Shown: one piece after another, positions 17,639 to 53,662 of the stretch
Layout: each line of letters begins with the position of its first letter
Position numbering within the stretch: the first letter of the stretch is position 1
IMG/VR virus record: IMGVR_UViG_3300010399_000005
Location: 1-64,000 of that record
Origin: a virus
Direction: 5' to 3' (one strand)
DNA: 64,000 nt
Translations under genes and position numbers: made by a program
The notes under the pieces: generated by a model
Told to the model about the DNA's origin: nothing
Seen by the model: only the letters and a program-made list of their open reading frames with translations
The model's database searches: none

Positions 17639-18707
17639 CTGACCTTCGCGCGTCGAGCGTTCACTCGTTGAGTGACCTCATGCGCCAGCTGCCACGTCTC
17701 GGCCCAGTGCCACGCGTGTTCCTCGAAAGTCAGCAGTCGAGCGATCGACCGTGCTGCTTCACTCGTTTCCTGCCACGCCGAGTCATCAGTGAGAAAGCGC
17801 TTCAGTGCCTTGACCCAGGACCGTGTCCGTTGGTCAACTAGGACACCAGCCTCGGGGCACAAGTTGTGCAGCACTCGGTACTCGCCGATGTCCGACGCTA
17901 CCCAGGGGCACCCGACGGATGCGAGCTCCAGAGGCTTGAGATACGACTTGCCTCGATTGAACCTCGAGTCCGCGAGGGGTGCGGCTCCAACATCGAGGTT
18001 GAGTAGTCCTTGCGACCAATACTGGAACTCGACGCGTCCTGTGGCTCGAGGATCCTCAGGTAGACCGAGTGCCTTACCCATCCCCTCTGGGTAGCCCACC
18101 ACTAGGAAGTTGTCGCGTAGCTGCTGGACCGCACCTGCGAGAATGGGTACGTCATCGGGATGCGAGTGCACGGCGCCTGGCCAGCCCCAGATACGTTCAT
18201 CTCTCAGTGGCCGTTCAAGCTCGGTGAACCGACGCGGTACGCAGTTCCGCAGCACACGCGAACGCTCCTTACCGAAGCGTGTCTGAAGCTCAGGGGTGGA
18301 CACCGTGACCAGCGTCGCGAGACGACACGCACGTTGAGCGTGATGCCAGTTGTTCTTAGGGGAACGAGCTGGATGAAGCATGGCGAACGCGGCGTTGTCT
18401 GGATGGATGCACGTGAGGTCATCATCCATGTCGACGACGACTGTCTTACCCTCGTTGATCAAGTGCTCCATGAGCTGGACGAGGAAGACGTTCGTAGGCC
18501 TCTGAAAGACGTAGACATCTGCGTCGCGCCCTACCTGTACTGACCGCAACCGGTCACCGTCGCGGATGGCGAACAGGCCTGAGGGGTCACCTGGCATGAC
18601 GATCTCAACGTCGTACCCCTGTCGCTGCAGCTCCTGTGCTGGCCAGATCAGTCGGTAATGTCCTATCCGCAGCCCCACGCGTCAGCTGGAAACACGCAAG
18701 TCTTCAT
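17635..18707 (-). CDS. GT-B (family 4-like) glycosyltransferase, interrupted by a 5-nt TAGGA insert at 18661-18665
   Basis: ATG at 18707 gives MKTCVFPADAWGCG-stop; the +2 frame continues HYRLIWP...VFQRP...DMDDD...VTVST...FNRGKSYLKPLE. Removing 5 nt restores GCGHYR. Confidence 0.85.
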
Positions 18708-18739
18708 TTGGCATCACCCATGATACATGGATCCTTTCG

Positions 18740-19351
18740 TCAAAGTGTCGTGAATGTGATGTCGTGAAACAGCACCGGCTCGGTGTCACCCATCTCGACA
18801 TTGCCGGCCATCGTCACACCGACGTACGTGTGTCCACCAAGCACGTTGAGCGCGGGCATCGTGATTCGGTTCTGTGGTCGGTATCCTACCGGGAGCGTGA
18901 AGATGACAATGTTCGTACCTGAGACACGATCGGCCGTACCACGTAAAGACACCATGTGTCCATCACGACGGAACATGACCTGTGGTGCCTGGTCCTGGCC
19001 AGGTCCCGTGGTACCACTCAGGTGGGTCCACCCAGTGTTGAACGGCACCTGCTGCTGGTTGCCTACGATGTGCCAAGGATCGTGCCTAGGTATGCCGATG
19101 ATGAGTGCTTGGTGTGGAGGGGCGAAGAGCACCGTGACACGTTCACCAACGTTCACGACGAGCTGCGTCACATCATGTGCGCGGATGATGGTGGAGTCAG
19201 CGTCGAGCTGTACCTGGTGAATGAAGTACGTCGTGTCAACCTCGGTGACTGTACCGTGAATGACCTCCGAGATGGACGTCTCGGCGAGTGCGCGCTGGAC
19301 TGCAACCTGCGAGGCCGTCTTCACCAACATCATATCATGTGTCGTTACCAC
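18740..19351 (-). CDS. minor tail protein (spike or receptor-binding-like)
   Basis: N-terminal GTVT OB-like segment; C-terminal VSLRG...IFTLPVGYRP tail-fibre motif. Confidence 0.7.
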   Translation of the reverse strand: MVTTHDMMLVKTASQVAVQRALAETSISEVIHGTVTEVDTTYFIHQVQLDADSTIIRAHDVTQLVVNVGERVTVLFAPPHQALIIGIPRHDPWHIVGNQQQVPFNTGWTHLSGTTGPGQDQAPQVMFRRDGHMVSLRGTADRVSGTNIVIFTLPVGYRPQNRITMPALNVLGGHTYVGVTMAGNVEMGDTEPVLFHDITFTTL

Positions 19352-20451
19352 TACAAGTGCTCCATGTCACGGTCATACGTACGTCGTATGGTGTGCTGCA
19401 TGTTCGAGCCGTCGACACACTCCATAGTCCACGTCATCTCGAGGAAGCGGTCTCCCTCAAAGTCCACGACGTTGAAGTGATCGTGTCGCGGGTCAGGCGG
19501 GCCTGAGAACTCAACGGTCTCGAAGGGAAACCTCCAGCCACGACACAGCGACCTTGCGGCGAAGTCCGCGTCCTGCTGTGTCGCGATCCCCTGCATCTGC
19601 TCGACGTGTGAGACGACGAAGCCTCGGTTCTCGATTGAGTGTGGTGCTTCAGGTGGGATGTCACAGATCCCATAGACCGGAAGATCGGTGGCTCCGTTGT
19701 TGATGACGATGAAACGGTTTGGTAGCTCGAGGATGTTGGTCGACCTTGTGACCGTTCCTCTGAACGTTCGAAGACCCGCCGGGTAAGACAGCACATCACC
19801 GGCAGCCGCTGTGAAGGGATCAGGCATCGGTCCAAGCTGACCTACACCCACGTTGTCGAAGTAGAGGTCGTGAAAGCCGATCATCATCGCCAGCTCGTTG
19901 ATGACGCGAAGCCGTGATGTGCCGATCTTCCAGGACAGCGCCTCAGCCTGTGGTGTGATGACCGCTGGCGACGTCTGCATGTTGAACTCGATGGGAATCT
20001 CTGAGAGCAGACCGTAGATCGCGTCGGTGATGACGGTGCCCGGTGGATACGAGACCGAGTGATCAAGCTCTTGATCGACGATGAGAAGTTGATCAACTAG
20101 ACCGCACTCACCGACGGTAAGTTCCACGCCGTTCATCGCCGTGATGCGATGTCGTGAGACGTCAGCGAATCGAAAGAGTCCTAGTGGCCACTCGGTCTTA
20201 TCACTCAAGATCATAAAGACACGGACGCTCCAGCGCACCGCGTTGATCTCATCGATCTCATTGGGCAGCACGCTAAAGTTCTGCATCGTTCGCTTGATGC
20301 TTCGTGAGATGTCGACCGTGATACTAGGTGGGGAGTCACGATCCATCAGCTCAAGCGTACCAAGTGGTTCACTACCGTCGTAGAGGTCGAAGCGCCACGA
20401 CGATGCACGGTAGTTCGTCTCGAGGTCGAGAAGTGGGTTCGTCATCGTCAT
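19351..20451 (-). CDS. minor tail/hub protein
   Basis: WPLGLF, LYFDNVG, PNRFIV and PDPRHD motifs; second gene after tape measure. Confidence 0.7.
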   Translation of the reverse strand: MTMTNPLLDLETNYRASSWRFDLYDGSEPLGTLELMDRDSPPSITVDISRSIKRTMQNFSVLPNEIDEINAVRWSVRVFMILSDKTEWPLGLFRFADVSRHRITAMNGVELTVGECGLVDQLLIVDQELDHSVSYPPGTVITDAIYGLLSEIPIEFNMQTSPAVITPQAEALSWKIGTSRLRVINELAMMIGFHDLYFDNVGVGQLGPMPDPFTAAAGDVLSYPAGLRTFRGTVTRSTNILELPNRFIVINNGATDLPVYGICDIPPEAPHSIENRGFVVSHVEQMQGIATQQDADFAARSLCRGWRFPFETVEFSGPPDPRHDHFNVVDFEGDRFLEMTWTMECVDGSNMQHTIRRTYDRDMEHL

Positions 20452-23027: not shown

Positions 23028-26000
23028 CTAGATCGTCCTCACTGTAAGTGTAAGTGCTCGTCGTCTCAACGTCGCCTCGACACTGTCGGTGAACGCATCA
23101 GCGGCGGCCTGAGCTTCAGCGTTGGAGACCGCTCCGGCGAACTGCACGTGAACGTTCTCGATCGTGATCCCACCAAGAACGGCCTGTGTCGCTGCAGCCA
23201 CTGTAGCCGACGAACCTGTAGTGCCGTTACTTGACACACTTGAGGGCTGACTGATGAGATCGAGCAGTCCTGACTTCGCGGCCAGTGCGGCGGCACGACG
23301 ACGATCATCCAAGGGGATGACGACCTCGGGAGAGTGTAGGACCGCGAACGTGTCCTTGTCGATGATCCCACCACCGGCAAAACCGGGAATGCTCGGGAAG
23401 CTCGGGAGTGAGATGTGTGGAATGCTGTTCAACGTTGCGATGAAGTTATTCACCTTTCCGATCGCGTTGTTGATCATTCCAGCGACGATGCCAAATGCTT
23501 GTCCTACACTATGAACGATGCCCTCAACAAACTCAAGTGCACCACCTAGTGCATGCGCGACATCACCGAGTGTTTGGAACACTGACGAAGCAAAGCGTAT
23601 GTTAAATGCGAGAAAGTCTGCTGCAGCTGACACACCATCAGCTGCGTTTCGAAGACCAAAGAGAGTGAGCTGAAGTGCGAATGTGATCGGAATCATCAAG
23701 TTCGAGATGACATCGTGATTGTTCTTAATCGTATTCGCAAGACTTAGAAACGATGGTGCGATCACCGAAGAGATTACAGCTGCAAGTGGTAGAAACACGT
23801 TGTTCATCAAGTCCTTGACAACAGGACTTAGTTCACTCGTGATGACAATCCAAACATTATGAAGTTCATTCTTAAGATTAGTAAGTGCCGGAACAACTGA
23901 TGTGTTCCAAGTGTTAACGATTGGATCCCAGACATTAATGCGTAGATCATCAATCGCAGGCTTTAGTGTGTTAGTGATCTCAGTTGATGTATCGTGAAGT
24001 ATGTTCTTAGCTTGAGTAAGTGCGCTGTTACCACGTGTTTCGAGCAAACCAATGAAAGGTTCAAGTGTATTAATCCTAAAGTCATCCCAGGCAGGCTTTA
24101 GTACGTTTGTGATCACTGCTGCGATGCCACCGAACACGAAGTCTCTAAGATCAACGAGTCTAGGTATCAGGTTAAACGCAATGAGATCGTGAACAGGCTG
24201 GATGACATTCAAACGAAGATCATCCCACACCGGCTTAAACACATTCGTGATCGTATCTGCGATCGGACCAAGCTTGTCGTGTATGAGCTGAAACGCTGTC
24301 GCGATCAGTGCGAGTGGGCTCGCGACCGGTGCGAGGAACGAGAGCAAATTCGCAAATGCTGTGACGATGAACGAAAGAGCGGTGGCGATCGCAAGAAGTA
24401 CTGGAGCGCCAATATCTCTTACGAAGATCGTCGTCAGTTGAAGTAGTGGAGGTATGATCGGCAAGACAGCGATGACGAGATCTGCGAACGCGATGGCAAG
24501 TGCAGCGAGTGCGGTAGCGAGCTCAGGCAAGACCGGGGCGATAGCCTCCATGACCACGATGAACTCATCAGCGAACAGACCGATAATCTCCACGAGAATC
24601 GGTGAGAGACGCTTTAGGATCTCAAGAAGTGCACCACCCAAGATCTCAGCGACCTGCGTGATCGCTGGTCCCAGAGTTGTGGCGAACGCATCCGCGATCC
24701 GCTCGATCACTGGTGCGAGTACCTCAATGAGCTGGATAGCTACACCGGCCACGGCATCAAGAAACGGCGTCAACGCCTTAACGACCGTACCTATGATCTT
24801 GGCTAGGGGTGGTAGAAGGACCTCAACGAGGCGTGCAATGATCTCGAGAAACGGCTCAAGTGCGTGAACGAGTGGCGGGATGACCTGACCCAGTGCCTTG
24901 AAGATTGCACCGACTCCCGCCGCCAGAGGTTCGATAGCAGGCTGCAACTCACGGATACCCTCACCAAACCCCCTGAAGAAGTCGGCGATCGCCGGTCCCA
25001 GGACGTTGATGATCGGAATGAGCGCAGCGAGAAGTGACTGAGCGATGTCTGAGATAGCAGGTGCGACCAACTTCAGCGTATCACCAATGACCGTCGTGAG
25101 AGGCGTCAACAGCGTCTTCACTTGGTCGACCAGGGGGAGGAACGCATCAGTCAGCGCGAGAGAGATGGTGTCCTTGAACGTTGAGAACAGACCAAGCAGT
25201 GTCTGTGACTGTGCAGCCATCGCACCAGCCGCGCCGGGGAACTCTTTCATACCCTTCAGCAGTGCTTGAACTGCCTTGTCCGCGGGTATGAGGCCATCAC
25301 TGACCTGCTGCTGAAGTGCTTGGGTCGAGATACCCAGACCCTTAGCCATCGCTTCAAAGACCGGGAAACCTGGGAGTGCTTCACCGATCTGCAGTAGCTC
25401 TTCGGTGGAAGCCTTTCCCTTCGATGCCATCTGAGAGAAAGCGAGGATGACACGATCGATGGCCTCAGGTGGTGCACCCAGCACAGCAGTGAGGTCACCG
25501 ACCGTACTGATCGTCGGGATGATCTGGTCACGTGTGATCTTCAGTGCACCGGCCGTCGCGAGCAGTGACTTGGCGTTGTTCGCCAGGCCAGCGAACTCAA
25601 ACGGCGTCGTCGCAGCGAACTGCTGCATCTCGCGAATGAACTTGTCAGCTTCCTCAGCAGAACCTAGGAGAGCCTTGAAGCTGACCTGTGTCTGCTCAAG
25701 TGATGCCGCAGTCTTCAGACCAAAGCCAACGGCTGCGGCCGCACCAGTTGCGAGTGCACCGCCTACGAGTAGTGCACCTGTCTTAAGAAAGCCAAGTGCA
25801 GCGCTTGCGCGACCTGAACCCTCACTTACGTTCTCACCGACCGCATCACCAGCGACCCTAGACTCGGCCTCCAGTCGCCCGAACGCATCCGCACCGCCGA
25901 TACTCCGTAGCGACCGGTCGGCCGAGTTCGCCGCCTCCTTGAAGGCACGCTCGATGCCCTCACCTACGCGACGTGCTTCGTCATCGATGCTACCGAGTGC

Positions 26001-26102
26001 GCGTACCAGGCCCAGGATCGAGGCAAGTGCGCCTTCAGTGTGAGCGGTTACCTCGACGAATGCCGAGGCAATGGGACCACTCGAACCACCGATGAAGCTC
26101 AC
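23028..26102 (-). CDS. tape measure protein
   Basis: LEQTQVSFKALLGS..FAATTPFE tape-measure domain; amphipathic repeats; FAGGGII...EVVIPL C-terminus; follows tail chaperones. Confidence 0.95.
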   Translation of the reverse strand: MSFIGGSSGPIASAFVEVTAHTEGALASILGLVRALGSIDDEARRVGEGIERAFKEAANSADRSLRSIGGADAFGRLEAESRVAGDAVGENVSEGSGRASAALGFLKTGALLVGGALATGAAAAVGFGLKTAASLEQTQVSFKALLGSAEEADKFIREMQQFAATTPFEFAGLANNAKSLLATAGALKITRDQIIPTISTVGDLTAVLGAPPEAIDRVILAFSQMASKGKASTEELLQIGEALPGFPVFEAMAKGLGISTQALQQQVSDGLIPADKAVQALLKGMKEFPGAAGAMAAQSQTLLGLFSTFKDTISLALTDAFLPLVDQVKTLLTPLTTVIGDTLKLVAPAISDIAQSLLAALIPIINVLGPAIADFFRGFGEGIRELQPAIEPLAAGVGAIFKALGQVIPPLVHALEPFLEIIARLVEVLLPPLAKIIGTVVKALTPFLDAVAGVAIQLIEVLAPVIERIADAFATTLGPAITQVAEILGGALLEILKRLSPILVEIIGLFADEFIVVMEAIAPVLPELATALAALAIAFADLVIAVLPIIPPLLQLTTIFVRDIGAPVLLAIATALSFIVTAFANLLSFLAPVASPLALIATAFQLIHDKLGPIADTITNVFKPVWDDLRLNVIQPVHDLIAFNLIPRLVDLRDFVFGGIAAVITNVLKPAWDDFRINTLEPFIGLLETRGNSALTQAKNILHDTSTEITNTLKPAIDDLRINVWDPIVNTWNTSVVPALTNLKNELHNVWIVITSELSPVVKDLMNNVFLPLAAVISSVIAPSFLSLANTIKNNHDVISNLMIPITFALQLTLFGLRNAADGVSAAADFLAFNIRFASSVFQTLGDVAHALGGALEFVEGIVHSVGQAFGIVAGMINNAIGKVNNFIATLNSIPHISLPSFPSIPGFAGGGIIDKDTFAVLHSPEVVIPLDDRRRAAALAAKSGLLDLISQPSSVSSNGTTGSSATVAAATQAVLGGITIENVHVQFAGAVSNAEAQAAADAFTDSVEATLRRRALTLTVRTI

Positions 26103-26440
26103 TGTGTCGCTCCTATGACGAAGCCGTAGTCACGTGCTGCTTGCATACTCGACTCGGCGGCCGCCGCGTCGCCCTTCCACCACGGGGGAGGTTTCTTACG
26201 CTTCGGTTGAGGCTTCTCCACCTCGACCTCCCTCGCTCTCGCTTCCATGTTCGCCAGCTGCGCCTCGAACTCATCCCTCTCTTCACGTGTCTTCCCTTCG
26301 ATGATCACGAAGTAGATGAGGTTGAGCAGGCGACGAAGTGGCAGCTCTAAGGGGTCAACTCCTCGCGCTGCACACCAACCGTCGAACTCGTTCCACCGTC
26401 GTCGTGCCCATTCGTAGAGGAGGACGACGGTGAGGTAGGG
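26099..26440 (-). CDS. tail assembly chaperone, frameshifted C-terminal (T) segment
   Basis: The -1 frame is open from CCC TAC at 26440 through WNEFDGWCAARGVDPLELPLRRLLNLIYF to 26099. Confidence 0.7.
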   Translation of the reverse strand, partial: PYLTVVLLYEWARRRWNEFDGWCAARGVDPLELPLRRLLNLIYFVIIEGKTREERDEFEAQLANMEARAREVEVEKPQPKRKKPPPWWKGDAAAAESSMQAARDYGFVIGATQ

Positions 26441-27119: not shown

Positions 27120-27667
27120 AGTCCCACCGTCGCACAGTCGTGACAGTTCATCAAGCCCATAAAGACTCGCAGCGTCGATCCGGCGCAGCCGCCCTCGGGT
27201 CCGATGGTCGGATGCTCATCTAGCACCCAGCGGTAGTTGAACCCGGCGACCCCACCGAGTGTGTCTTGGTTCTGCAGACAGCAGCGCACAGCCTCACGCA
27301 CGATGAGCTGGTCGGTGAACGTCGTGTACGCGGCCGCACTGAGCTGCTCACACGACGGTGCGTGATCGATGTCGCCGACAGGTACACATCGAATGATGGA
27401 CACCGCGAAGACGACGACCTCATAGGGTGCATCACAGACATTCGCAGTCGCATCAGGTTGTGGAAACGTTCTCGACGCGTACACATTCTCAATGTGCACA
27501 GTGAGCTGTCCACCGTTAGGTCCTCCACAACAGTTGGAGAACTCGATCTCATTACCAGGAACGACACACCGTCGACTTGGGCACCCGTTCTCACTCGACT
27601 GAAGTGCCGCACAGACACAGTCCAGCAACACCTGTGCTACATCAAAAGAACGACGGATCGGATTCAC
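27116..27667 (-). CDS. tail terminator-like virion protein (Cys-rich)
   Basis: Position in neck module; GPEGGCAG motif. Confidence 0.55.
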   Translation of the reverse strand: MNPIRRSFDVAQVLLDCVCAALQSSENGCPSRRCVVPGNEIEFSNCCGGPNGGQLTVHIENVYASRTFPQPDATANVCDAPYEVVVFAVSIIRCVPVGDIDHAPSCEQLSAAAYTTFTDQLIVREAVRCCLQNQDTLGGVAGFNYRWVLDEHPTIGPEGGCAGSTLRVFMGLMNCHDCATVGL

Positions 27668-37981: not shown

Positions 37982-38034
37982 GTTCTTAGAAGGTCGATCG
38001 AGCCCCGAGGACCTTCTTACGACAAGGAGTTCAA

Positions 38035-38586
38035 GTGCGACAGATGACCCCTAAGCAGTACGCGTTCATCGTCAAGCTGAGCCGCGAGCGGGACTACCCG
38101 ATCGCCGGCCAGTCCCCCGAGGAAGCGATGATCATCGCCCGCCACGAGGACGCCCTGGGTGGCGTCAACTCGGTCTCGACCGTCGAGGCCAGTCGGGTGA
38201 TCGACTGGCTGCTCTCGCAGCCGCGGCTGGTGACACCGAACAGCCCGAGCGACTGGAAGCTCGTCCCGGGAGTGTATGTGCTCCCCGACGGCCGCGTGGT
38301 GCAGGGCAAGTCGAACAAGGCCGGGACGAACGTCTACTCCCTCCTGTGGGTGGAGACGAACGCGGACCGCCTGAACGACGAGGGCGAGCACGTCCGCGGT
38401 GAGTGGCAGTACGCTCCGGAGCTCAAGGCTCTGGTCCGTCCCGAGCACAAGATGACCCTGGAGCAGGCACGGACCTTCACCCTCCGCTACGGCCAGTGTG
38501 CACGGTGCTGCCGCAAGCTCAAGGCCGCCCAGTCGGTCGAGGAGGGCATCGGCCCGGTGTGCCGGAAGTACTTCAGCCTGGTGTGA
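38035..38586 (+). CDS. DUF6011-like Zn-finger protein
   Basis: GQCARCCRKL...SVEEGIGPVC; AAGGAG SD. Confidence 0.75.
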   Translation: MRQMTPKQYAFIVKLSRERDYPIAGQSPEEAMIIARHEDALGGVNSVSTVEASRVIDWLLSQPRLVTPNSPSDWKLVPGVYVLPDGRVVQGKSNKAGTNVYSLLWVETNADRLNDEGEHVRGEWQYAPELKALVRPEHKMTLEQARTFTLRYGQCARCCRKLKAAQSVEEGIGPVCRKYFSLV

Positions 38587-50834: not shown

Positions 50835-52979
50835 TCACAGCATATCGAACTCGTGAACACCGTTCTCATTACGACCTATGAACTTCAACTGGGTACCACG
50901 TGGGAAGATCAACTCCTTCTCACTCTCGGTACCGGCGATCATCTTCTTCCCCTTCGGGACGTTGATGTGCATCAACACACCACCCGTTCCGCCGTAGTCG
51001 AGTCCCGCAAAGTTCTTAGCAGTGTATGTGCTCGTCGTGGTCGACATGAAGCCATCTTCAGTGATCGTCGTACCAGGCTTGAGTGCCCTAAGCTTGTTCC
51101 CAAGACCACTCTTCACACCGCGTTGCACCATCATCGGAGCGCTGTTCGTCGTACCGATCACGTCGAACGACTTATCGAGACCCTTCACATGCAACGCGTA
51201 ACCCGAGCTTAGACTACGCTCTCGCAGCCCGGTGTTGATGGGATGGTAGCCACTACCTGTGTAAGATGAGTGAGCTTGAACGATGTGGTTCTCTTCATCA
51301 GTTCGACGCTCATAGGGCTTCTTCTTAATGATGTCCCGGTTCTTCGCGACACGGTCACGTACGATGTCGGCGTTCTTCTGCCGTGCTGTCTTTGAGAGCT
51401 TGCTACCGGTAGACGTAGTCTTTCCAACTTCGCCACCACTCGCCTTGTTGATTCGCTTCGACGCTTTAACCTTGACGTAGTACGCCTTCTTGGTGTACTC
51501 CGTCGAGCTGATCTCGCCACTCTTAAGCTTGGCGTTGAGGTCGGAGTACTCCTTCGTCTCGGCCTCGTTGAACTGATGAGGTCCAACCTCACTCGGCTTA
51601 AGAAGCTTCTTCTTACGCTCCACTGAAGCCCAAGGAGCAGTACCGCTTCCGGTCTTCTTAAGTACATCCTTATGATATGTGACCGGTCCGTACTTCGTCT
51701 CGACGACGAGGTAGTCACCGTCTTCACGGATAACCTTACCCTTACTACCGGCGGCCGAGGTGACCTCATCACCCACCTTGATCTTCCCGGTGTCCCCACC
51801 GACTGAAGACTTCGGTTCCTTTACCTCTGAGGTCTTCTTAGTCGTACCGCCCGCCTTCGCACCGTTCGCTTTGTTGATGCGCTTGGCGGCCTTCACCTTG
51901 ACGTAGTAGGACTTATACTTGAACTCTTTCTCAGAGATGGCGCCACTCGCGTACTGTTGAGCGATGTCATTGAACTCATTGAACTCTTCGTCATTGAAGT
52001 GCTGCCCACCGATCGCACTCGGCTTGATCGGCTTCTTACCCTCACCTCCGCTTGCCTCACTTCCACCAGAGGATCCACCTCCTCCCTTAGGTGCGAAACG
52101 TCCGTGGTTGTCACGAACGTAACGGTCCCCACCCTTGACGAACGTCTCGACAGCAGCACTCGATCTAAGTGATATGTCTTCATACTCCCAGGTCACCGTG
52201 CAGCGACAGTTCACACGGTTGGCGGCCGACGCATCGGGATCACCGGGGTAGCTGAGCTTCTCACCACCCACTCGAAAGTCGCCGAAGAAGTCCACGACCT
52301 GACCGTCGGCAGCACGGTGAGAGACCCTCGTGCGTGAGTCATGCGTTGAGAGCCAGACCTTGCGCTGTGGTGCGTTGGGTCCTAAGAGCAGGAGCTGCTG
52401 GTAGGCTCCGGCGTTGGACGCCCCGATGACCTCGGTCCGTGCGATGGTCCGAGCACGAGTGTCCGTCGTGCCCAGGACCTCCTTGACGCGCAACGAGAGC
52501 TGTGGAATCGACTCACCCAGCTGCATACCCTGGATCAGCTCATCCCGAGTCTTCTTCCACATGTCATCGCCGACGCCGACGAGTTGGTTCTCGACCTGCG
52601 TGAGGAAGTGCTGAGCTTGAGGATGTGAAAGGTCGAAGAGCACTGGAGCCTGGACCGAGATCTCGTGTAGGACACGGTCCGCTGAGAGACGCATCACATC
52701 TTCCAGCTCGGGTATGATCGTCTTCTTCACCTCGGCTCGCCACGCTCTCTCAATGAGCACGAGTTGATCCAGTGAGAGAGTCGTGGGAAGGATCGGTGAG
52801 ATGGGCGTCGAAGGTGGAGTGTAGGGCGGAGGAGGTCCCGACTCAGGTGCAGCGTCGGCAGCGGTAAGTGTAGTAAGCTCCTTGATCTTCCGCTCAATCT
52901 CAGCGAGCCGACGATCCTCGACCTCACGTGAATCGGCGACACGAAACGCTTCATCAATGAAGCGTGTGGGTACACTCAC
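50835..52979 (-). CDS. MuF-like minor head protein with C-terminal ADP-ribosyltransferase domain
   Basis: RARTIARTE, KVWLSTHDSRTRVSH, YPGDP, NCRC (MuF); YTGSGY..IN..LR, VQRG, FMSTT and ESEKELIFPRG (R-S-E ART). Confidence 0.88.
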   Translation of the reverse strand: MSVPTRFIDEAFRVADSREVEDRRLAEIERKIKELTTLTAADAAPESGPPPPYTPPSTPISPILPTTLSLDQLVLIERAWRAEVKKTIIPELEDVMRLSADRVLHEISVQAPVLFDLSHPQAQHFLTQVENQLVGVGDDMWKKTRDELIQGMQLGESIPQLSLRVKEVLGTTDTRARTIARTEVIGASNAGAYQQLLLLGPNAPQRKVWLSTHDSRTRVSHRAADGQVVDFFGDFRVGGEKLSYPGDPDASAANRVNCRCTVTWEYEDISLRSSAAVETFVKGGDRYVRDNHGRFAPKGGGGSSGGSEASGGEGKKPIKPSAIGGQHFNDEEFNEFNDIAQQYASGAISEKEFKYKSYYVKVKAAKRINKANGAKAGGTTKKTSEVKEPKSSVGGDTGKIKVGDEVTSAAGSKGKVIREDGDYLVVETKYGPVTYHKDVLKKTGSGTAPWASVERKKKLLKPSEVGPHQFNEAETKEYSDLNAKLKSGEISSTEYTKKAYYVKVKASKRINKASGGEVGKTTSTGSKLSKTARQKNADIVRDRVAKNRDIIKKKPYERRTDEENHIVQAHSSYTGSGYHPINTGLRERSLSSGYALHVKGLDKSFDVIGTTNSAPMMVQRGVKSGLGNKLRALKPGTTITEDGFMSTTTSTYTAKNFAGLDYGGTGGVLMHINVPKGKKMIAGTESEKELIFPRGTQLKFIGRNENGVHEFDML

Positions 52980-53662
52980 GTGATCACCTCAGCATCGAAG
53001 ACCTCAGCACCGAGCGCTGTCTCGGTCGATCTTCCCGTGATCTTATAGCGAGTGCCGCGGTTGAGGATGAGCTCTCCTTGTTGCTCCATACCACCAACGA
53101 CAGGTGTCCCCGCTGGCACCTTGATCTTAAGCCTCACATTACCGAACTCGAAGCCGTTCGCCGACGTCGACATGTACCCATCTTCTACGAGCTCGGTCCC
53201 GGTGCTCGTGTTGAGTCCCGAGTGTCGTTGAAGACTACGTGTAACGGTGACGTCACTGGTGGATCGCACGCTCGAGTGACTGAACACTTGATCCATACCC
53301 TTGATGGCCTCGGCCGAGTTCGCATCCATCTCACGTAAACCACGAAGAGAGCGATTCATCCCCTCGTAACCACCACCCATGTACTGCAGTCGAGCCATCT
53401 TACCCTCGGGCGTCGCCGTCTCATTGAAGTGTGCCTGTGCTTCAGCGTGTAGGTCTTCCGCACTCGACGCATCGACGCTCTTTACACTACCGTGACCGTG
53501 AGTACGCTGGTCGTGATGAGCACCTAGGTGAAGAGTCTCGATGCTCGCAGTCAGAGCCTCAGTCGTACCAGCCTTGATAGCACGTCGTAGCGCTCGAGCG
53601 ACGAGTGCGTCGAAGTGCTCGACAAGTAGATCAAGCTCTTCCTCGCTAAGAACAATCGGCAC
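52976..53662 (-). CDS. ADP-ribosyltransferase (VIP2-like) domain protein
   Basis: YMGGGYEGMNRSLR, VTRS, YMSTS and QQGELILNRG motifs. Confidence 0.8.
   Translation of the reverse strand: MPIVLSEEELDLLVEHFDALVARALRRAIKAGTTEALTASIETLHLGAHHDQRTHGHGSVKSVDASSAEDLHAEAQAHFNETATPEGKMARLQYMGGGYEGMNRSLRGLREMDANSAEAIKGMDQVFSHSSVRSTSDVTVTRSLQRHSGLNTSTGTELVEDGYMSTSANGFEFGNVRLKIKVPAGTPVVGGMEQQGELILNRGTRYKITGRSTETALGAEVFDAEVIT

What the first reader, a model, noticed from the sequence alone, without database searches (positions are those of the whole stretch)
18655..18707. Perfectly matched GGA-UA-GGA hop site hides the true N-terminus of the tail-operon glycosyltransferase
Seen: ATG at 18707 encodes MKTCVFPADAWGCG, then UAG. 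GGA (18668-18666) is repeated 5 nt later as GGA (18663-18661), overlapping the stop. The ORF-finder start at 18678 (MGLRIGHYR) lacks the first beta strand and the GCG loop. Established: GGA followed by UAG is the T4 gene 60 take-off context. Inference: this is the cleanest test case for hopping. No HNH is adjacent, so the mechanism does not depend on a neighbouring homing nuclease.
Basis: partly seen in the sequence, partly recalled or inferred. Interest (0 to 1): 0.82.

Follow-up and report, generated by a model that had tools for sequence, protein, structure and literature searches.

The report
Five-base stop-hop gap in phage glycosyltransferase
A soil phage's tail-operon sugar-transferase gene is split after codon 14 by five extra bases that start with a stop codon, and comparison with about 160 related genes suggests that ribosomes hop over the gap and that such gaps arise as protection against selfish DNA-cutting enzymes.

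Summary
On the minus strand, ATG 18707 opens 14 codons that end GGA-UAG. The rest of a GT-B glycosyltransferase continues 5 nt downstream in the +2 frame, after a second GGA. Of the 119 other listed homologues, 110 have this N-terminus uninterrupted. A second assembly at about 50x depth and a variant protein from another contig carry the same insert.

Eight of about 160 distinct related alleles are also frame-broken, all between codons 8 and 16. Four of the eight have a stop directly after the last conserved codon, and most have a cognate landing codon. Four sit directly behind an HNH homing-endonuclease gene, versus 1 of about 151 intact alleles.

Best reading (about 0.5): a homing-endonuclease-resistance insert, orphaned in this genome, decoded by a +5 stop-hop of peptidyl-tRNA-Gly. 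A C5-methyltransferase in the same window has the same kind of 5-nt insert, here with an HNH gene alongside. No protein or RNA data exist, so hopping is inferred.

Closest known systems are T4 gene 60/MobA and the phiHau3 terminase. This scan has recorded such cassettes before on other DNA (32 findings in at least 23 genomes). I reached this reading before seeing those notes.

The parts
18713..18719 (-). Strong Shine-Dalgarno GGGTGAT, 5 nt upstream of the ATG
   Evidence: One search shows the sequence. In one search the motif GGGTGAT or GAGGTGAT lies within 30 nt of the start in 7 of 8 broken alleles versus 4 of 116 intact alleles (Fisher p = 3.4e-8).
18666..18707 (-). ORF1: ATG plus 13 codons, the true N-terminus of the glycosyltransferase (strand 1, the PAD..WG loop and the start of helix 1)
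   Evidence: Searches show the homologues' N-termini. One search gives the model of the intact homologue.
18666..18668 (-). Take-off codon GGA (Gly14)
   Evidence: It aligns with the Gly of GCG in homologues.
18663..18665 (-). In-frame UAG directly after the take-off codon
18661..18665 (-). The 5 extra bases (TAGGA as written; the placement can slide within 18661-18668 because of the GGA repeat)
   Evidence: The relative G001/L001 reads GGA TGT GGT TAT TAC uninterrupted. One search gives a query gap of 0.
18661..18663 (-). Landing codon GGA, identical to the take-off codon, 5 nt downstream
17635..18660 (-). ORF2: resumes at CAT (His15) and runs to the stop at 17637-17635; this is the rest of the GT-B glycosyltransferase
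   Evidence: One search lists the ORF. Pfam Glyco_trans_1_4 scores 28.9 bits against a cut-off of 27. PHROG 7162 glycosyltransferase has E = 1e-26. There are 558 homologues.
18676..18678 (-). GTG that ORF finders take as the start; it has no SD before it and is probably not the real start
   Evidence: The IMG call on the same contig starts even later (P0122, 320 aa).
10637..11125 (+). HNH homing-endonuclease gene that overlaps the start of the C5-methyltransferase; part of the second case in the same window
   Evidence: Pfam NUMOD3 at 1.6e-7 and HNH at 7e-4 on 10631-11109. PHROG HNH and homing-endonuclease families. It is absent from relative G001. GC3 is 0.377 against 0.65 for the neighbouring genes.
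11338..11351 (+). Second break: TGC TCT TAG CT GGG inside motif IV (GNPPCS|GFS) of the C5-methyltransferase. It has 5 extra bases, a UAG after the take-off UCU, and a landing GCU that matches at 2 of 3 positions
   Evidence: Pfam DNA_methylase hits the downstream part at 1.3e-12 over profile positions 81-319. GC3 changes from 0.408 to 0.668 at the insert. None of 15 IMG/VR relatives is broken there.

Best explanation
The glycosyltransferase gene at the end of the tail operon carries a real 5-nt insert between Gly14 and His15, at the N-cap of its first helix.

Inferred mechanism: ribosomes start at ATG 18707 behind a strong SD and translate 14 codons. They then pause with peptidyl-tRNA-Gly on GGA in the P site and UAG in the A site. 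A fraction of them uncouple, slide 5 nt and re-pair on the identical GGA. They resume at CAT, which gives the canonical ..GCG-HYR.. enzyme without an extra residue. The remaining ribosomes terminate.

Inferred origin: the insert lies in the 25-bp stretch (gene nt 24-48) that free-standing HNH homing endonucleases use as their junction and target in related phages. An insert there would make the DNA refractory to cutting while recoding keeps the enzyme. In this genome the nuclease is absent at the glycosyltransferase (an orphan insert), but one is present at the methyltransferase, which has the same kind of insert.

Shown: the insert, the homologues' N-terminus, the clustering of breaks, the stops, the matched codons and the endonuclease association. 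Inferred: the hop, its efficiency, and protection from cutting.
For: 1. The homologues' N-termini are uninterrupted in 110 of the 119 other listed homologues and in the syntenic relative G001.

2. I held 204 related loci, about 160 of them distinct alleles. Eight are frame-broken between codons 8 and 16:
- L012: TAT|TAGGTAT|CGG
- L051: GGT|TGAGGGC|CAC
- L117: GCT|TAACGCC|GAT
- L111: TTT|T|AGG
- L156: TGT|TTAGT|GGA
- L119 and L178: TTT|C|
- L127: 7 nt
Only one locus (L160) is broken elsewhere.

3. Statistics without the window: stop right after take-off in 4 of 8 alleles (p = 2.9e-4); landing codon read by the same tRNA in 3 of 5 multi-base inserts (p = 2.9e-4); position, 8 of 10 breaks in the first 17 codons (p = 1.3e-9).

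4. An HNH gene lies directly upstream in 4 of 8 broken alleles versus 1 of about 151 intact alleles (Fisher p = 1.3e-5).

5. L111 and L044 are 99.4-99.9% identical except for a 515-nt cassette. The cassette comprises a remnant of the gene's 5' end, an HNH_3+AP2 ORF, an SD and a recoded N-terminus. Eight of the 12 differences in 1,899 nt lie in gene nt 12-50 and end at the insert.

6. A strong SD accompanies 7 of 8 broken alleles versus 4 of 116 intact alleles, and it is present in the window.

7. The same genome has the HNH + methyltransferase case, with a composition break at the insert.

8. Precedents in print:
- T4 gene 60 uses GGA-UAG, and its insert protects against MobA (passages).
- The phiHau3 terminase has 10-nt and 7-nt gaps, with a junction peptide seen by mass spectrometry in E. 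coli (passages).
- Synthetic stop-hops, with +5 and +6 named in the title of Weiss 1987 (reference list only).
Against: There are no protein, ribosome-profiling or RNA data for any of these alleles.

No RNA structure stands out. The folding z-scores of six 116-121-nt stretches run from -0.41 to +1.26.

The nascent chain is only 14 residues long, far shorter than the 46 residues that act in T4.

No endonuclease gene or gene remnant is present at this locus, so the link to homing is by analogy with relatives.

The methyltransferase landing codon matches at only 2 of 3 positions, and L127 has no stop and no clear landing codon.

Three of the eight other alleles are single-base changes in T runs, which could be sequencing errors or plain mutations.

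The enzyme may be dispensable, so a dead allele could persist for a while.

The loci came from ranked searches. The A1 search kept 80 of 305, which favours genes that are whole apart from their very start. The P0046 search kept all 73 confirmed loci.

Shared strong SDs could reflect common descent of cassette leaders rather than selection for expression.
Confidence: 0.5

Rival explanations
1. The insert simply inactivates the gene. It would be a recent scar, from imprecise repair after endonuclease attack or from a random mutation, in a dispensable accessory gene, with no productive recoding.
For: No expression data exist. None of 15 methyltransferase relatives shares that gene's break, so that case at least is young. 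L111 differs from an intact twin by under 1%, so some of these events are recent. One relative (L160) is broken mid-gene without any hop signature.
Against: Random inactivation would not place 8 of 10 breaks in 5% of the gene, put a stop right after the last conserved codon in 4 of 8 alleles, or give cognate landing codons. The cassettes carry a complete new start, SD and N-terminus, which is pointless for a dead gene. A strong SD accompanies 7 of 8 broken alleles. The downstream 341 codons are intact here and in the variant P0121.
Confidence: 0.27
2. An N-terminally truncated enzyme is made from GTG 18678, or by re-initiation after the 14-codon leader. The upstream piece would then act only as a short coupling ORF.
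For: GTG 18678 is in the downstream frame, 13 nt before the stop. Gene callers chose it or a later ATG.
Against: No SD precedes the GTG. The product would lack strand 1 and the loop that carries the nearly invariant D9, C13 and G14. These lie in a core region modelled at pLDDT 97. The reading also does not explain the matched codons.
Confidence: 0.1
3. Recoding occurs but is not a hop. It would be a +2 shift that decodes the second GGA as an extra Gly, or a -1 shift that adds Ile-Gly.
For: Both would restore the frame. Only mass spectrometry can tell them apart.
Against: The spacing of exactly one residue between GCG and [YF]R holds in 100 of 108 distinct N-termini. In the 7-nt alleles a +1 shift would add two residues, whereas a hop restores the canonical spacing in every stop-type allele. 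A -1 re-pairing of tRNA-Gly on CGG is not cognate.
Confidence: 0.08
4. Sequencing or assembly artefact.
For: The record is a metagenome assembly. The only full holder is probably the same sample.
Against: A second assembler gives the identical sequence at depth about 50, with no variants listed. The variant protein P0121 from another contig shows the same shifted reading. Five bases that are not in a homopolymer are not a typical error.
Confidence: 0.03

Closest known systems
Phage T4 gene 60 translational bypass carried by the MobA homing-endonuclease element (PMC5462505 introduction passage; bioRxiv 10.1101/2022.08.31.505936 passages; PMC5009743 passages)
   Same: Take-off GGA followed by UAG, and a matched GGA landing codon. 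The insert sits in a conserved coding stretch. In relatives the insert arrives with an HNH-type endonuclease, a remnant of the target and a recoded copy of the displaced coding segment, like the 'HomR' of the MobA element. The proposed role is protection of the DNA from the nuclease.
   Different: The gap is 5 nt (1-7 nt in relatives) rather than 50 nt, or 20 nt in the shortest clade reported. The nascent peptide is not long, and no take-off hairpin was detected. The gene, endonuclease families and hosts (Actinomycetota phages) are unrelated. In this window no endonuclease is adjacent. Efficiency is unknown.
Streptomyces phage phiHau3 terminase and the StrepC.1 and S. catenulae prophages: frame-breaking 10-nt and 7-nt inserts bypassed at UUA (PMC10732093 passages; Smith 2013 seen only as a reference)
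   Same: Actinobacterial phages, short gaps that break the frame, a slow-to-decode codon in the A site, a landing codon, and flanks that abut in insert-free relatives. A Trp-Gly-containing nascent peptide precedes take-off: KGWG there (PMC5009743 passage) and AWGCG here. Relative L156 has UUA in the A site.
   Different: Here the A-site codon is a stop (UAG), the gap is 5 nt, and the gene is a glycosyltransferase. The published explanation is a bldA-linked regulatory sensor, not endonuclease immunity. Only 3 of 100 terminase genes carried inserts there.
Synthetic 'stop-hops' in E. coli (Weiss et al. 1987; described in PMC5009743 passages; the title listing +5 and +6 was seen in a reference list)
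   Same: [quoted passage not shown]
   Different: Those are engineered, low-level events. The review passage I read says that no natural in-frame stop-hop is known. This would be a natural, recurrent, out-of-frame case.
prfB (RF2) +1 frameshift at a shifty stop (PMC10732093 discussion passage)
   Same: A stop in the A site and P-site tRNA slippage to a cognate overlapping codon. This applies to relative L111 (TTT TAG G).
   Different: The window's event re-pairs on a non-overlapping codon, 5 nt on. No SD lies at the fixed short distance before the stop.
Bypass elements ('byps') in Magnusiomyces capitatus mitochondria (mentioned in PMC5009743 and PMC10732093 passages)
   Same: Many short inserts in coding regions that are corrected during translation.
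   Different: A mitochondrial system with longer inserts. My figure of 27-55 nt for their length is recalled, not seen in a call. No endonuclease link was seen in the passages I read.

Membership tests
T4 gene 60-type programmed bypass | Matched take-off and landing codons | tested here: met
   GGA at 18668-18666 and GGA at 18663-18661.
T4 gene 60-type programmed bypass | Stop codon directly 3' of the take-off codon | tested here: met
   UAG at 18665-18663. PMC5462505 states that gene 60 has GGA followed by UAG.
T4 gene 60-type programmed bypass | Take-off stem-loop and flanking mRNA structures | tested here: not met
   The fold of 18600-18720(-) has z = 0.03. A 10-bp hairpin lies upstream, but the fold is no better than shuffles.
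T4 gene 60-type programmed bypass | Nascent-peptide signal of about 46 residues | tested here: not met
   Only 14 residues are made before take-off. Whether they act as a signal cannot be tested here.
T4 gene 60-type programmed bypass | Sequence homology to the MobA/gene 60 cassette | tested here: not met
   The host gene is different (GT-B glycosyltransferase). The endonucleases in relatives are HNH_3+AP2 and phrog_3377.
T4 gene 60-type programmed bypass | Trans-frame protein demonstrated | not testable with these tools
   No RNA holder was listed and no proteomics is available.
phiHau3-type short-gap bypass in actinophages | Frame-breaking short insert whose flanks abut in relatives | tested here: met
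phiHau3-type short-gap bypass in actinophages | UUA (bldA codon) in the A site | tested here: not met
   The window has UAG. Only relative L156 has TTA. TTA is rare in this genome, at 0.89 per 1,000 codons.
Homing-endonuclease cassette with target-site immunity | Endonuclease gene adjacent to the altered target | tested here: not met
   There is none within the neighbouring genes of the glycosyltransferase and no gene remnant. The feature is met for the methyltransferase in the same window and for relatives L012, L111, L119 and L127.
Homing-endonuclease cassette with target-site immunity | Insert blocks cleavage | not testable with these tools
   This needs a cleavage assay.
GT-B (GT4-like) glycosyltransferase | Family profile match and two-Rossmann fold | tested here: met
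   Pfam PF13692 scores 28.9 bits against a cut-off of 27. The model of the intact homologue has pLDDT 95.9. Its best Foldseek matches are MshA, PimA and BshA, with E = 1e-14 to 1e-12.

The most novel reading that the evidence does not exclude
Actinobacterial phages carry a widespread, natural class of very short (1-7 nt) 'stop-hop' and shifty-stop coding gaps. These gaps are created and spread by free-standing HNH homing endonucleases as target-site immunity. They can persist as orphans after the nuclease is gone, as in this glycosyltransferase. They also occur in unrelated genes of one genome, here a C5-methyltransferase. Ribosomes would then decode 8 nt as one glycine in a wild phage, which is the long-predicted natural counterpart of synthetic stop-hops. 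The phiHau3 terminase gaps might have the same origin.
Probability: 0.45. Interest if true: 0.82.

Novelty: new variant of a known kind. Interest (0 to 1): 0.7.

Why it matters
Productive translational bypassing is known from very few natural systems: T4 gene 60 and its homologues, yeast mitochondria, and the candidate phiHau3 terminase. If confirmed, this would be a minimal case: 5 nt, no detectable structure and a 14-residue nascent chain. It is easy to move into a reporter and would define the least a ribosome needs in order to hop.

It would also generalise the gene 60/MobA logic, in which recoding lets a selfish nuclease alter a conserved coding target without killing the gene, to other nucleases, genes and hosts.

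On the practical side, gene callers mis-start or split such genes. The same gene is called at 347 aa and at 320 aa in public collections. A cluster of short stop-containing inserts in a conserved motif could also be used to map homing-endonuclease target sites.

Tried and rejected
I therefore never saw the DNA of P0009, P0018, P0046 and P0121, and their inserts are inferred from the frame-shifted protein starts only.
- Megablast of the locus against the phage collection found nothing. tblastn found only distant Arthrobacter and Streptomyces phage glycosyltransferases.
- The metagenome scan with P0018 returned only relatives of 32-35% identity, not its own contig. I therefore could not test whether the 7-nt insert has persisted across 76% protein divergence.
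- A codon-score scan of the genome for stop + matched-codon pairs was swamped by ordinary gene junctions. A list of in-frame stops in tblastn matches was swamped by shadow frames. The homology scan against relative G001 flagged 7 pairs in the window's genome. Two are real breaks (methyltransferase, glycosyltransferase). The rest I read as shadow frames or junctions. One of these, at 52961-53180, I judged only's junction sequence.
- RNA folding gave no signal. Rfam found no family in the window. ARAGORN found no tRNA in the window.
- No RNA holder was listed. The runs were contigs only, so I could not look for within-sample variants.
- X2 gave a 151-nt piece at depth 2 whose loose end reads through Gly-His uninterrupted. 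It is too short and too thin to lean on.
- I considered tandem duplication as the source of the GGA repeat. The window's 10 bases would fit a 5-nt duplication plus one change, but the 7-nt inserts do not fit a duplication (my reading).
- I did not open the supplements of PMC10732093, which hold the Hau3 take-off and landing details.
- I did not use complex prediction, the protein-atlas search or the search of protein representatives.
Full report
**What is there.** The window is the first 64 kb of an 81,641-bp virus record with terminal repeats, rated complete. It has 59% G+C. One search shows the following on the minus strand:
- a strong Shine-Dalgarno sequence, GGGTGAT (18719-18713);
- ATG at 18707 and 13 further codons, giving MKTCVFPADAWGCG;
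- the last of these codons, GGA (18668-18666), followed by TAG (18665-18663);
- a second GGA (18663-18661), which shares its first G with TAG;
- CAT TAC CGA from 18660 onward.

The ORF finder reports 17635..18678 starting at a GTG (MGLRIGHYR..). That ORF is a glycosyltransferase: Pfam Glyco_trans_1_4 scores 28.9 bits against a cut-off of 27, and PHROG 7162 has E = 1e-26. It lies last in a tail module. The tape-measure gene is at 23031-26129 (Pfam TMP_3). It is followed by a tail protein and a minor tail protein.

**The upstream piece is the true N-terminus.** The protein search found 558 homologues, of which 120 were listed. Of the 119 other than the window's own, 110 carry the uninterrupted motif [P]AD..GCG.[YF]R within the first 45 residues, and one more (P0084) has it in a form my pattern missed. 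The closest intact one (70% identity) begins MKVVVFPADAWGCGHYRLIWPA.

A syntenic relative of about 70% nucleotide identity, G001, reads TGG GGA TGT GGT TAT TAC without interruption. When its ORF is laid on the window, one residue aligns to both GGA codons with no query gap. The window therefore has exactly five extra bases.

An AlphaFold model of the intact homologue has mean pLDDT 95.9. It places a strand at residues 3-6 and a helix at 13-27, and its fold matches MshA, PimA and BshA. The break therefore sits at the N-cap of helix 1. A protein started at GTG 18678 would lack strand 1 and the loop with the nearly invariant D9, C13 and G14.

**The insert is real.** A Logan contig of 81,548 nt at word depth about 50 holds 17600-19400 with no difference. 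It is probably the same sample, so this checks the assembly and is not an independent sighting. The protein cluster of the window's gene holds a second sequence, P0121, from a 2,943-nt contig. It differs at 5 residues and begins VGLRIGHYR, which is the same frame-shifted reading. I could not see its DNA.

**The break recurs in relatives, and only in this stretch.** I collected 204 loci with relatives of the gene:
- 80 of 305 from IMG/VR with an alignment query;
- all 73 confirmed loci with query P0046;
- one each with P0018 and P0009;
- 49 from species genomes.

These amount to 159 distinct 300-nt cores, or about 160 alleles. Eight alleles are frame-broken, all between codons 8 and 16:

| Locus | Break (take-off \| insert \| next) | Insert | 0-frame codon after take-off | Re-pairing |
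|---|---|---|---|---|
| L012 | TAT\|TAGGTAT\|CGG | 7 nt | TAG | TAT to TAT |
| L051 | GGT\|TGAGGGC\|CAC | 7 nt | TGA | GGT to GGC |
| L117 | GCT\|TAACGCC\|GAT | 7 nt | TAA | GCT to GCC |
| L111 | TTT\|T\|AGG | 1 nt (+1) | TAG | TTT to TTT |
| L156 | TGT\|TTAGT\|GGA | 5 nt | TTA (rare Leu codon) | TGT to AGT, 2 of 3 |
| L119, L178 | TTT\|C\|.. | 1 nt (+1) | sense codon, no stop | TTT to TTC |
| L127 | placement ambiguous | 7 nt | no stop | no clear landing codon |

One further locus, L160, has two frameshifts in mid-gene with no such signature. My first pass missed it because tblastn read through it. Three loci carry an intein in the FNxxK|S motif.

Leaving the window out, one search gives these figures:
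- an in-frame stop directly after the last conserved codon in 4 of 8 alleles (p = 2.9e-4 at 3/64 per allele);
- a landing triplet read by the same tRNA in 3 of 5 multi-base inserts (p = 2.9e-4 at 2/64);
- 8 of 10 breaks within the first 17 of about 350 codons (p = 1.3e-9).

Two caveats apply. The alignment search kept only the best 80 of 305, which favours genes broken at the very start. The single-base cases lie in T runs, where errors and mutations are common.

**Link to homing endonucleases.** L111 and L044 are 99.4-99.9% identical in their flanks. L111, however, holds about 515 extra bases in front of the gene. These comprise, in order:
- the old start codon fused to a degenerate copy of the ..FR.IWP stretch;
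- a 160-residue ORF with HNH_3 and AP2 domains (Pfam);
- a strong SD;
- a fresh copy of the gene's first 50 nt.

Of the 12 differences in 1,899 aligned bases, 8 lie at gene positions 12-50. They are third-position changes plus the extra T, and the sequences are almost identical after the insert.

L012 has the same nuclease family, preceded by a remnant MRVRVYPADP*GCG. L065 has the nuclease and a remnant, but its gene is in frame. L119 and L127 have another nuclease family directly upstream (phrog_3377 HNH endonuclease, E = 5e-40 and 1e-51; no Pfam hit), and L127 keeps a remnant MRVRVYPA. L178 keeps a remnant 116 nt upstream but no nuclease.

Searching the four nucleases against all 204 loci and both genomes found them only in these five alleles. 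That is 4 of 8 broken alleles against 1 of about 151 intact alleles (Fisher p = 1.3e-5). All the breaks fall within gene nt 24-48, a span the size of a homing-endonuclease site.

**A second case in the same window.** In the C5-methyltransferase (start at 11113), motif IV reads GGT AAC CCC CCG TGC TCT TAG CT GGG TTC. G001 and 14 of the 15 IMG/VR relatives read GNPPCSGFS or close variants without a break, and the fifteenth (L233) did not align at the motif. The part downstream of the insert matches Pfam DNA_methylase profile positions 81-319. An HNH gene (10637-11125; NUMOD3 and HNH) overlaps the methyltransferase start and is absent from G001. GC3 is 0.377 in the HNH gene and 0.408 in the methyltransferase up to the insert. 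It is 0.668 after the insert and 0.652 in the neighbouring gene. The nuclease evidently came with its own copy of the gene's 5' part, ending at the insert. The landing codon matches at only 2 of 3 positions.

**How it most likely works.** The shown facts are listed above. The inference is that the insert makes the DNA refractory to a nuclease that recognises the conserved GCGHYR-coding stretch. The inference continues that the enzyme is still made because peptidyl-tRNA-Gly, paused on GGA with UAG in the A site, re-pairs on the first cognate triplet downstream, which is the GGA at +5. This is the only route that restores the canonical spacing: one residue between GCG and [YF]R in 100 of 108 distinct N-termini.

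Broken alleles go with a strong SD, in 7 of 8 against 4 of 116 intact alleles. This fits selection for output from an inefficient step, or an effect of ribosome load (PMC6815119, abstract only). It could also be shared cassette ancestry.

At the window's glycosyltransferase there is no nuclease and no remnant. The insert is therefore an orphan. It may have been kept after loss of the nuclease, acquired by recombination, or selected as resistance against nucleases of co-infecting phages.

**Comparison with what is known.**
- T4 gene 60 takes off from GGA followed by UAG and lands on GGA after 50 nt (PMC5462505, introduction passage). Its insert protects against the MobA nuclease, whose element carries a recoded copy of the displaced coding stretch (bioRxiv 10.1101/2022.08.31.505936 passages; PMC5009743 passage).
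- Streptomyces phage phiHau3 and two prophages have 10-nt and 7-nt frame-breaking gaps after UUA in the terminase gene. A junction peptide was seen in E. coli once UUA was replaced by UAA (PMC10732093 passages).
- Stop-hops are described from synthetic constructs, and the review passage states that no natural in-frame stop-hop is known (PMC5009743).
- Two searches for this combination in print found nothing relevant. The four terms bypassing, glycosyltransferase, homing endonuclease and phage gave 4 papers, none on this. The stop-hop and ribosome-hopping terms from 2016 on gave 36 papers, 25 of them listed by title, none on phage glycosyltransferases.

Hosts of related prophages are Streptomyces, Micromonospora, Actinoplanes, Blastococcus and relatives.

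**Earlier notes of this scan.** After I had reached the nuclease reading, a word look-up showed 32 findings in at least 23 genomes. Eight follow-up reports among them describe endonuclease cassettes with short hops in phage glycosyltransferases. They agree with my reading but are not independent evidence. New here are the orphan state of the insert and the methyltransferase case in the same genome.

**Verdict.** The hidden N-terminus is established. Hopping is the best-supported reading (about 0.5) but remains unproven. The finding is a new variant of a known kind.

Noticed in passing
window 10637-11351 (+): An HNH homing-endonuclease gene overlaps the start of a C5-methyltransferase. The methyltransferase's motif IV is split by 5 bases (TCT TAG CT GGG). 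GC3 jumps from about 0.4 to about 0.67 exactly at the insert. Relative G001 lacks both the nuclease and the insert.
   Followed up: yes
L156:2238-2330, L158:2202-2300, L162:1743-1840: Three related glycosyltransferase genes carry an intein-like insertion (CVDSSMRICTHRG..) right after the conserved FNxxK. L156 has both this insertion and a 5-nt N-terminal insert. The gene family appears to be a frequent target of selfish elements.
   Followed up: no
L005:7140-7175 (G001 27140-27175): In relative G001, a gene that is intact in the window (37990-38583) is frame-shifted by one extra base at GCC AAA G ACG. This is an A-run, so it could be an error, a mutation or a +1 slip site.
   Followed up: partly
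L160:1455-2520: A related glycosyltransferase with two compensating frameshifts about 450 nt apart (near codons 67 and 215), without stops or matched codons at the junctions. It may be a pseudogene or an assembly problem.
   Followed up: partly
G000:C1:72224-72301 (outside the window): ARAGORN's only hit in the whole genome is a poor tRNA-like element called Gly(acc), with mismatched stems. I found no link to the GGA hop.
   Followed up: no
L012 and L023 (both on IMGVR_UViG_3300036859_000312): One phage contig carries two paralogous glycosyltransferases of this family. One has the nuclease cassette and the 7-nt insert, and the other is intact.
   Followed up: no
window 18713-18719 (-) and the starts of L012, L051, L111, L117, L119, L127, L156: Broken alleles almost always have an unusually strong SD (GGGTGAT or GAGGTGAT): 7 of 8 against 4 of 116 intact alleles.
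   Followed up: yes
window 18537-18657, run X2: A 151-nt piece at depth 2 from a lake-water run is 97% identical over 121 nt. It then reads Trp-Gly-Cys-Gly-His-Tyr without the insert, with three synonymous changes next to the site.
   Followed up: partly
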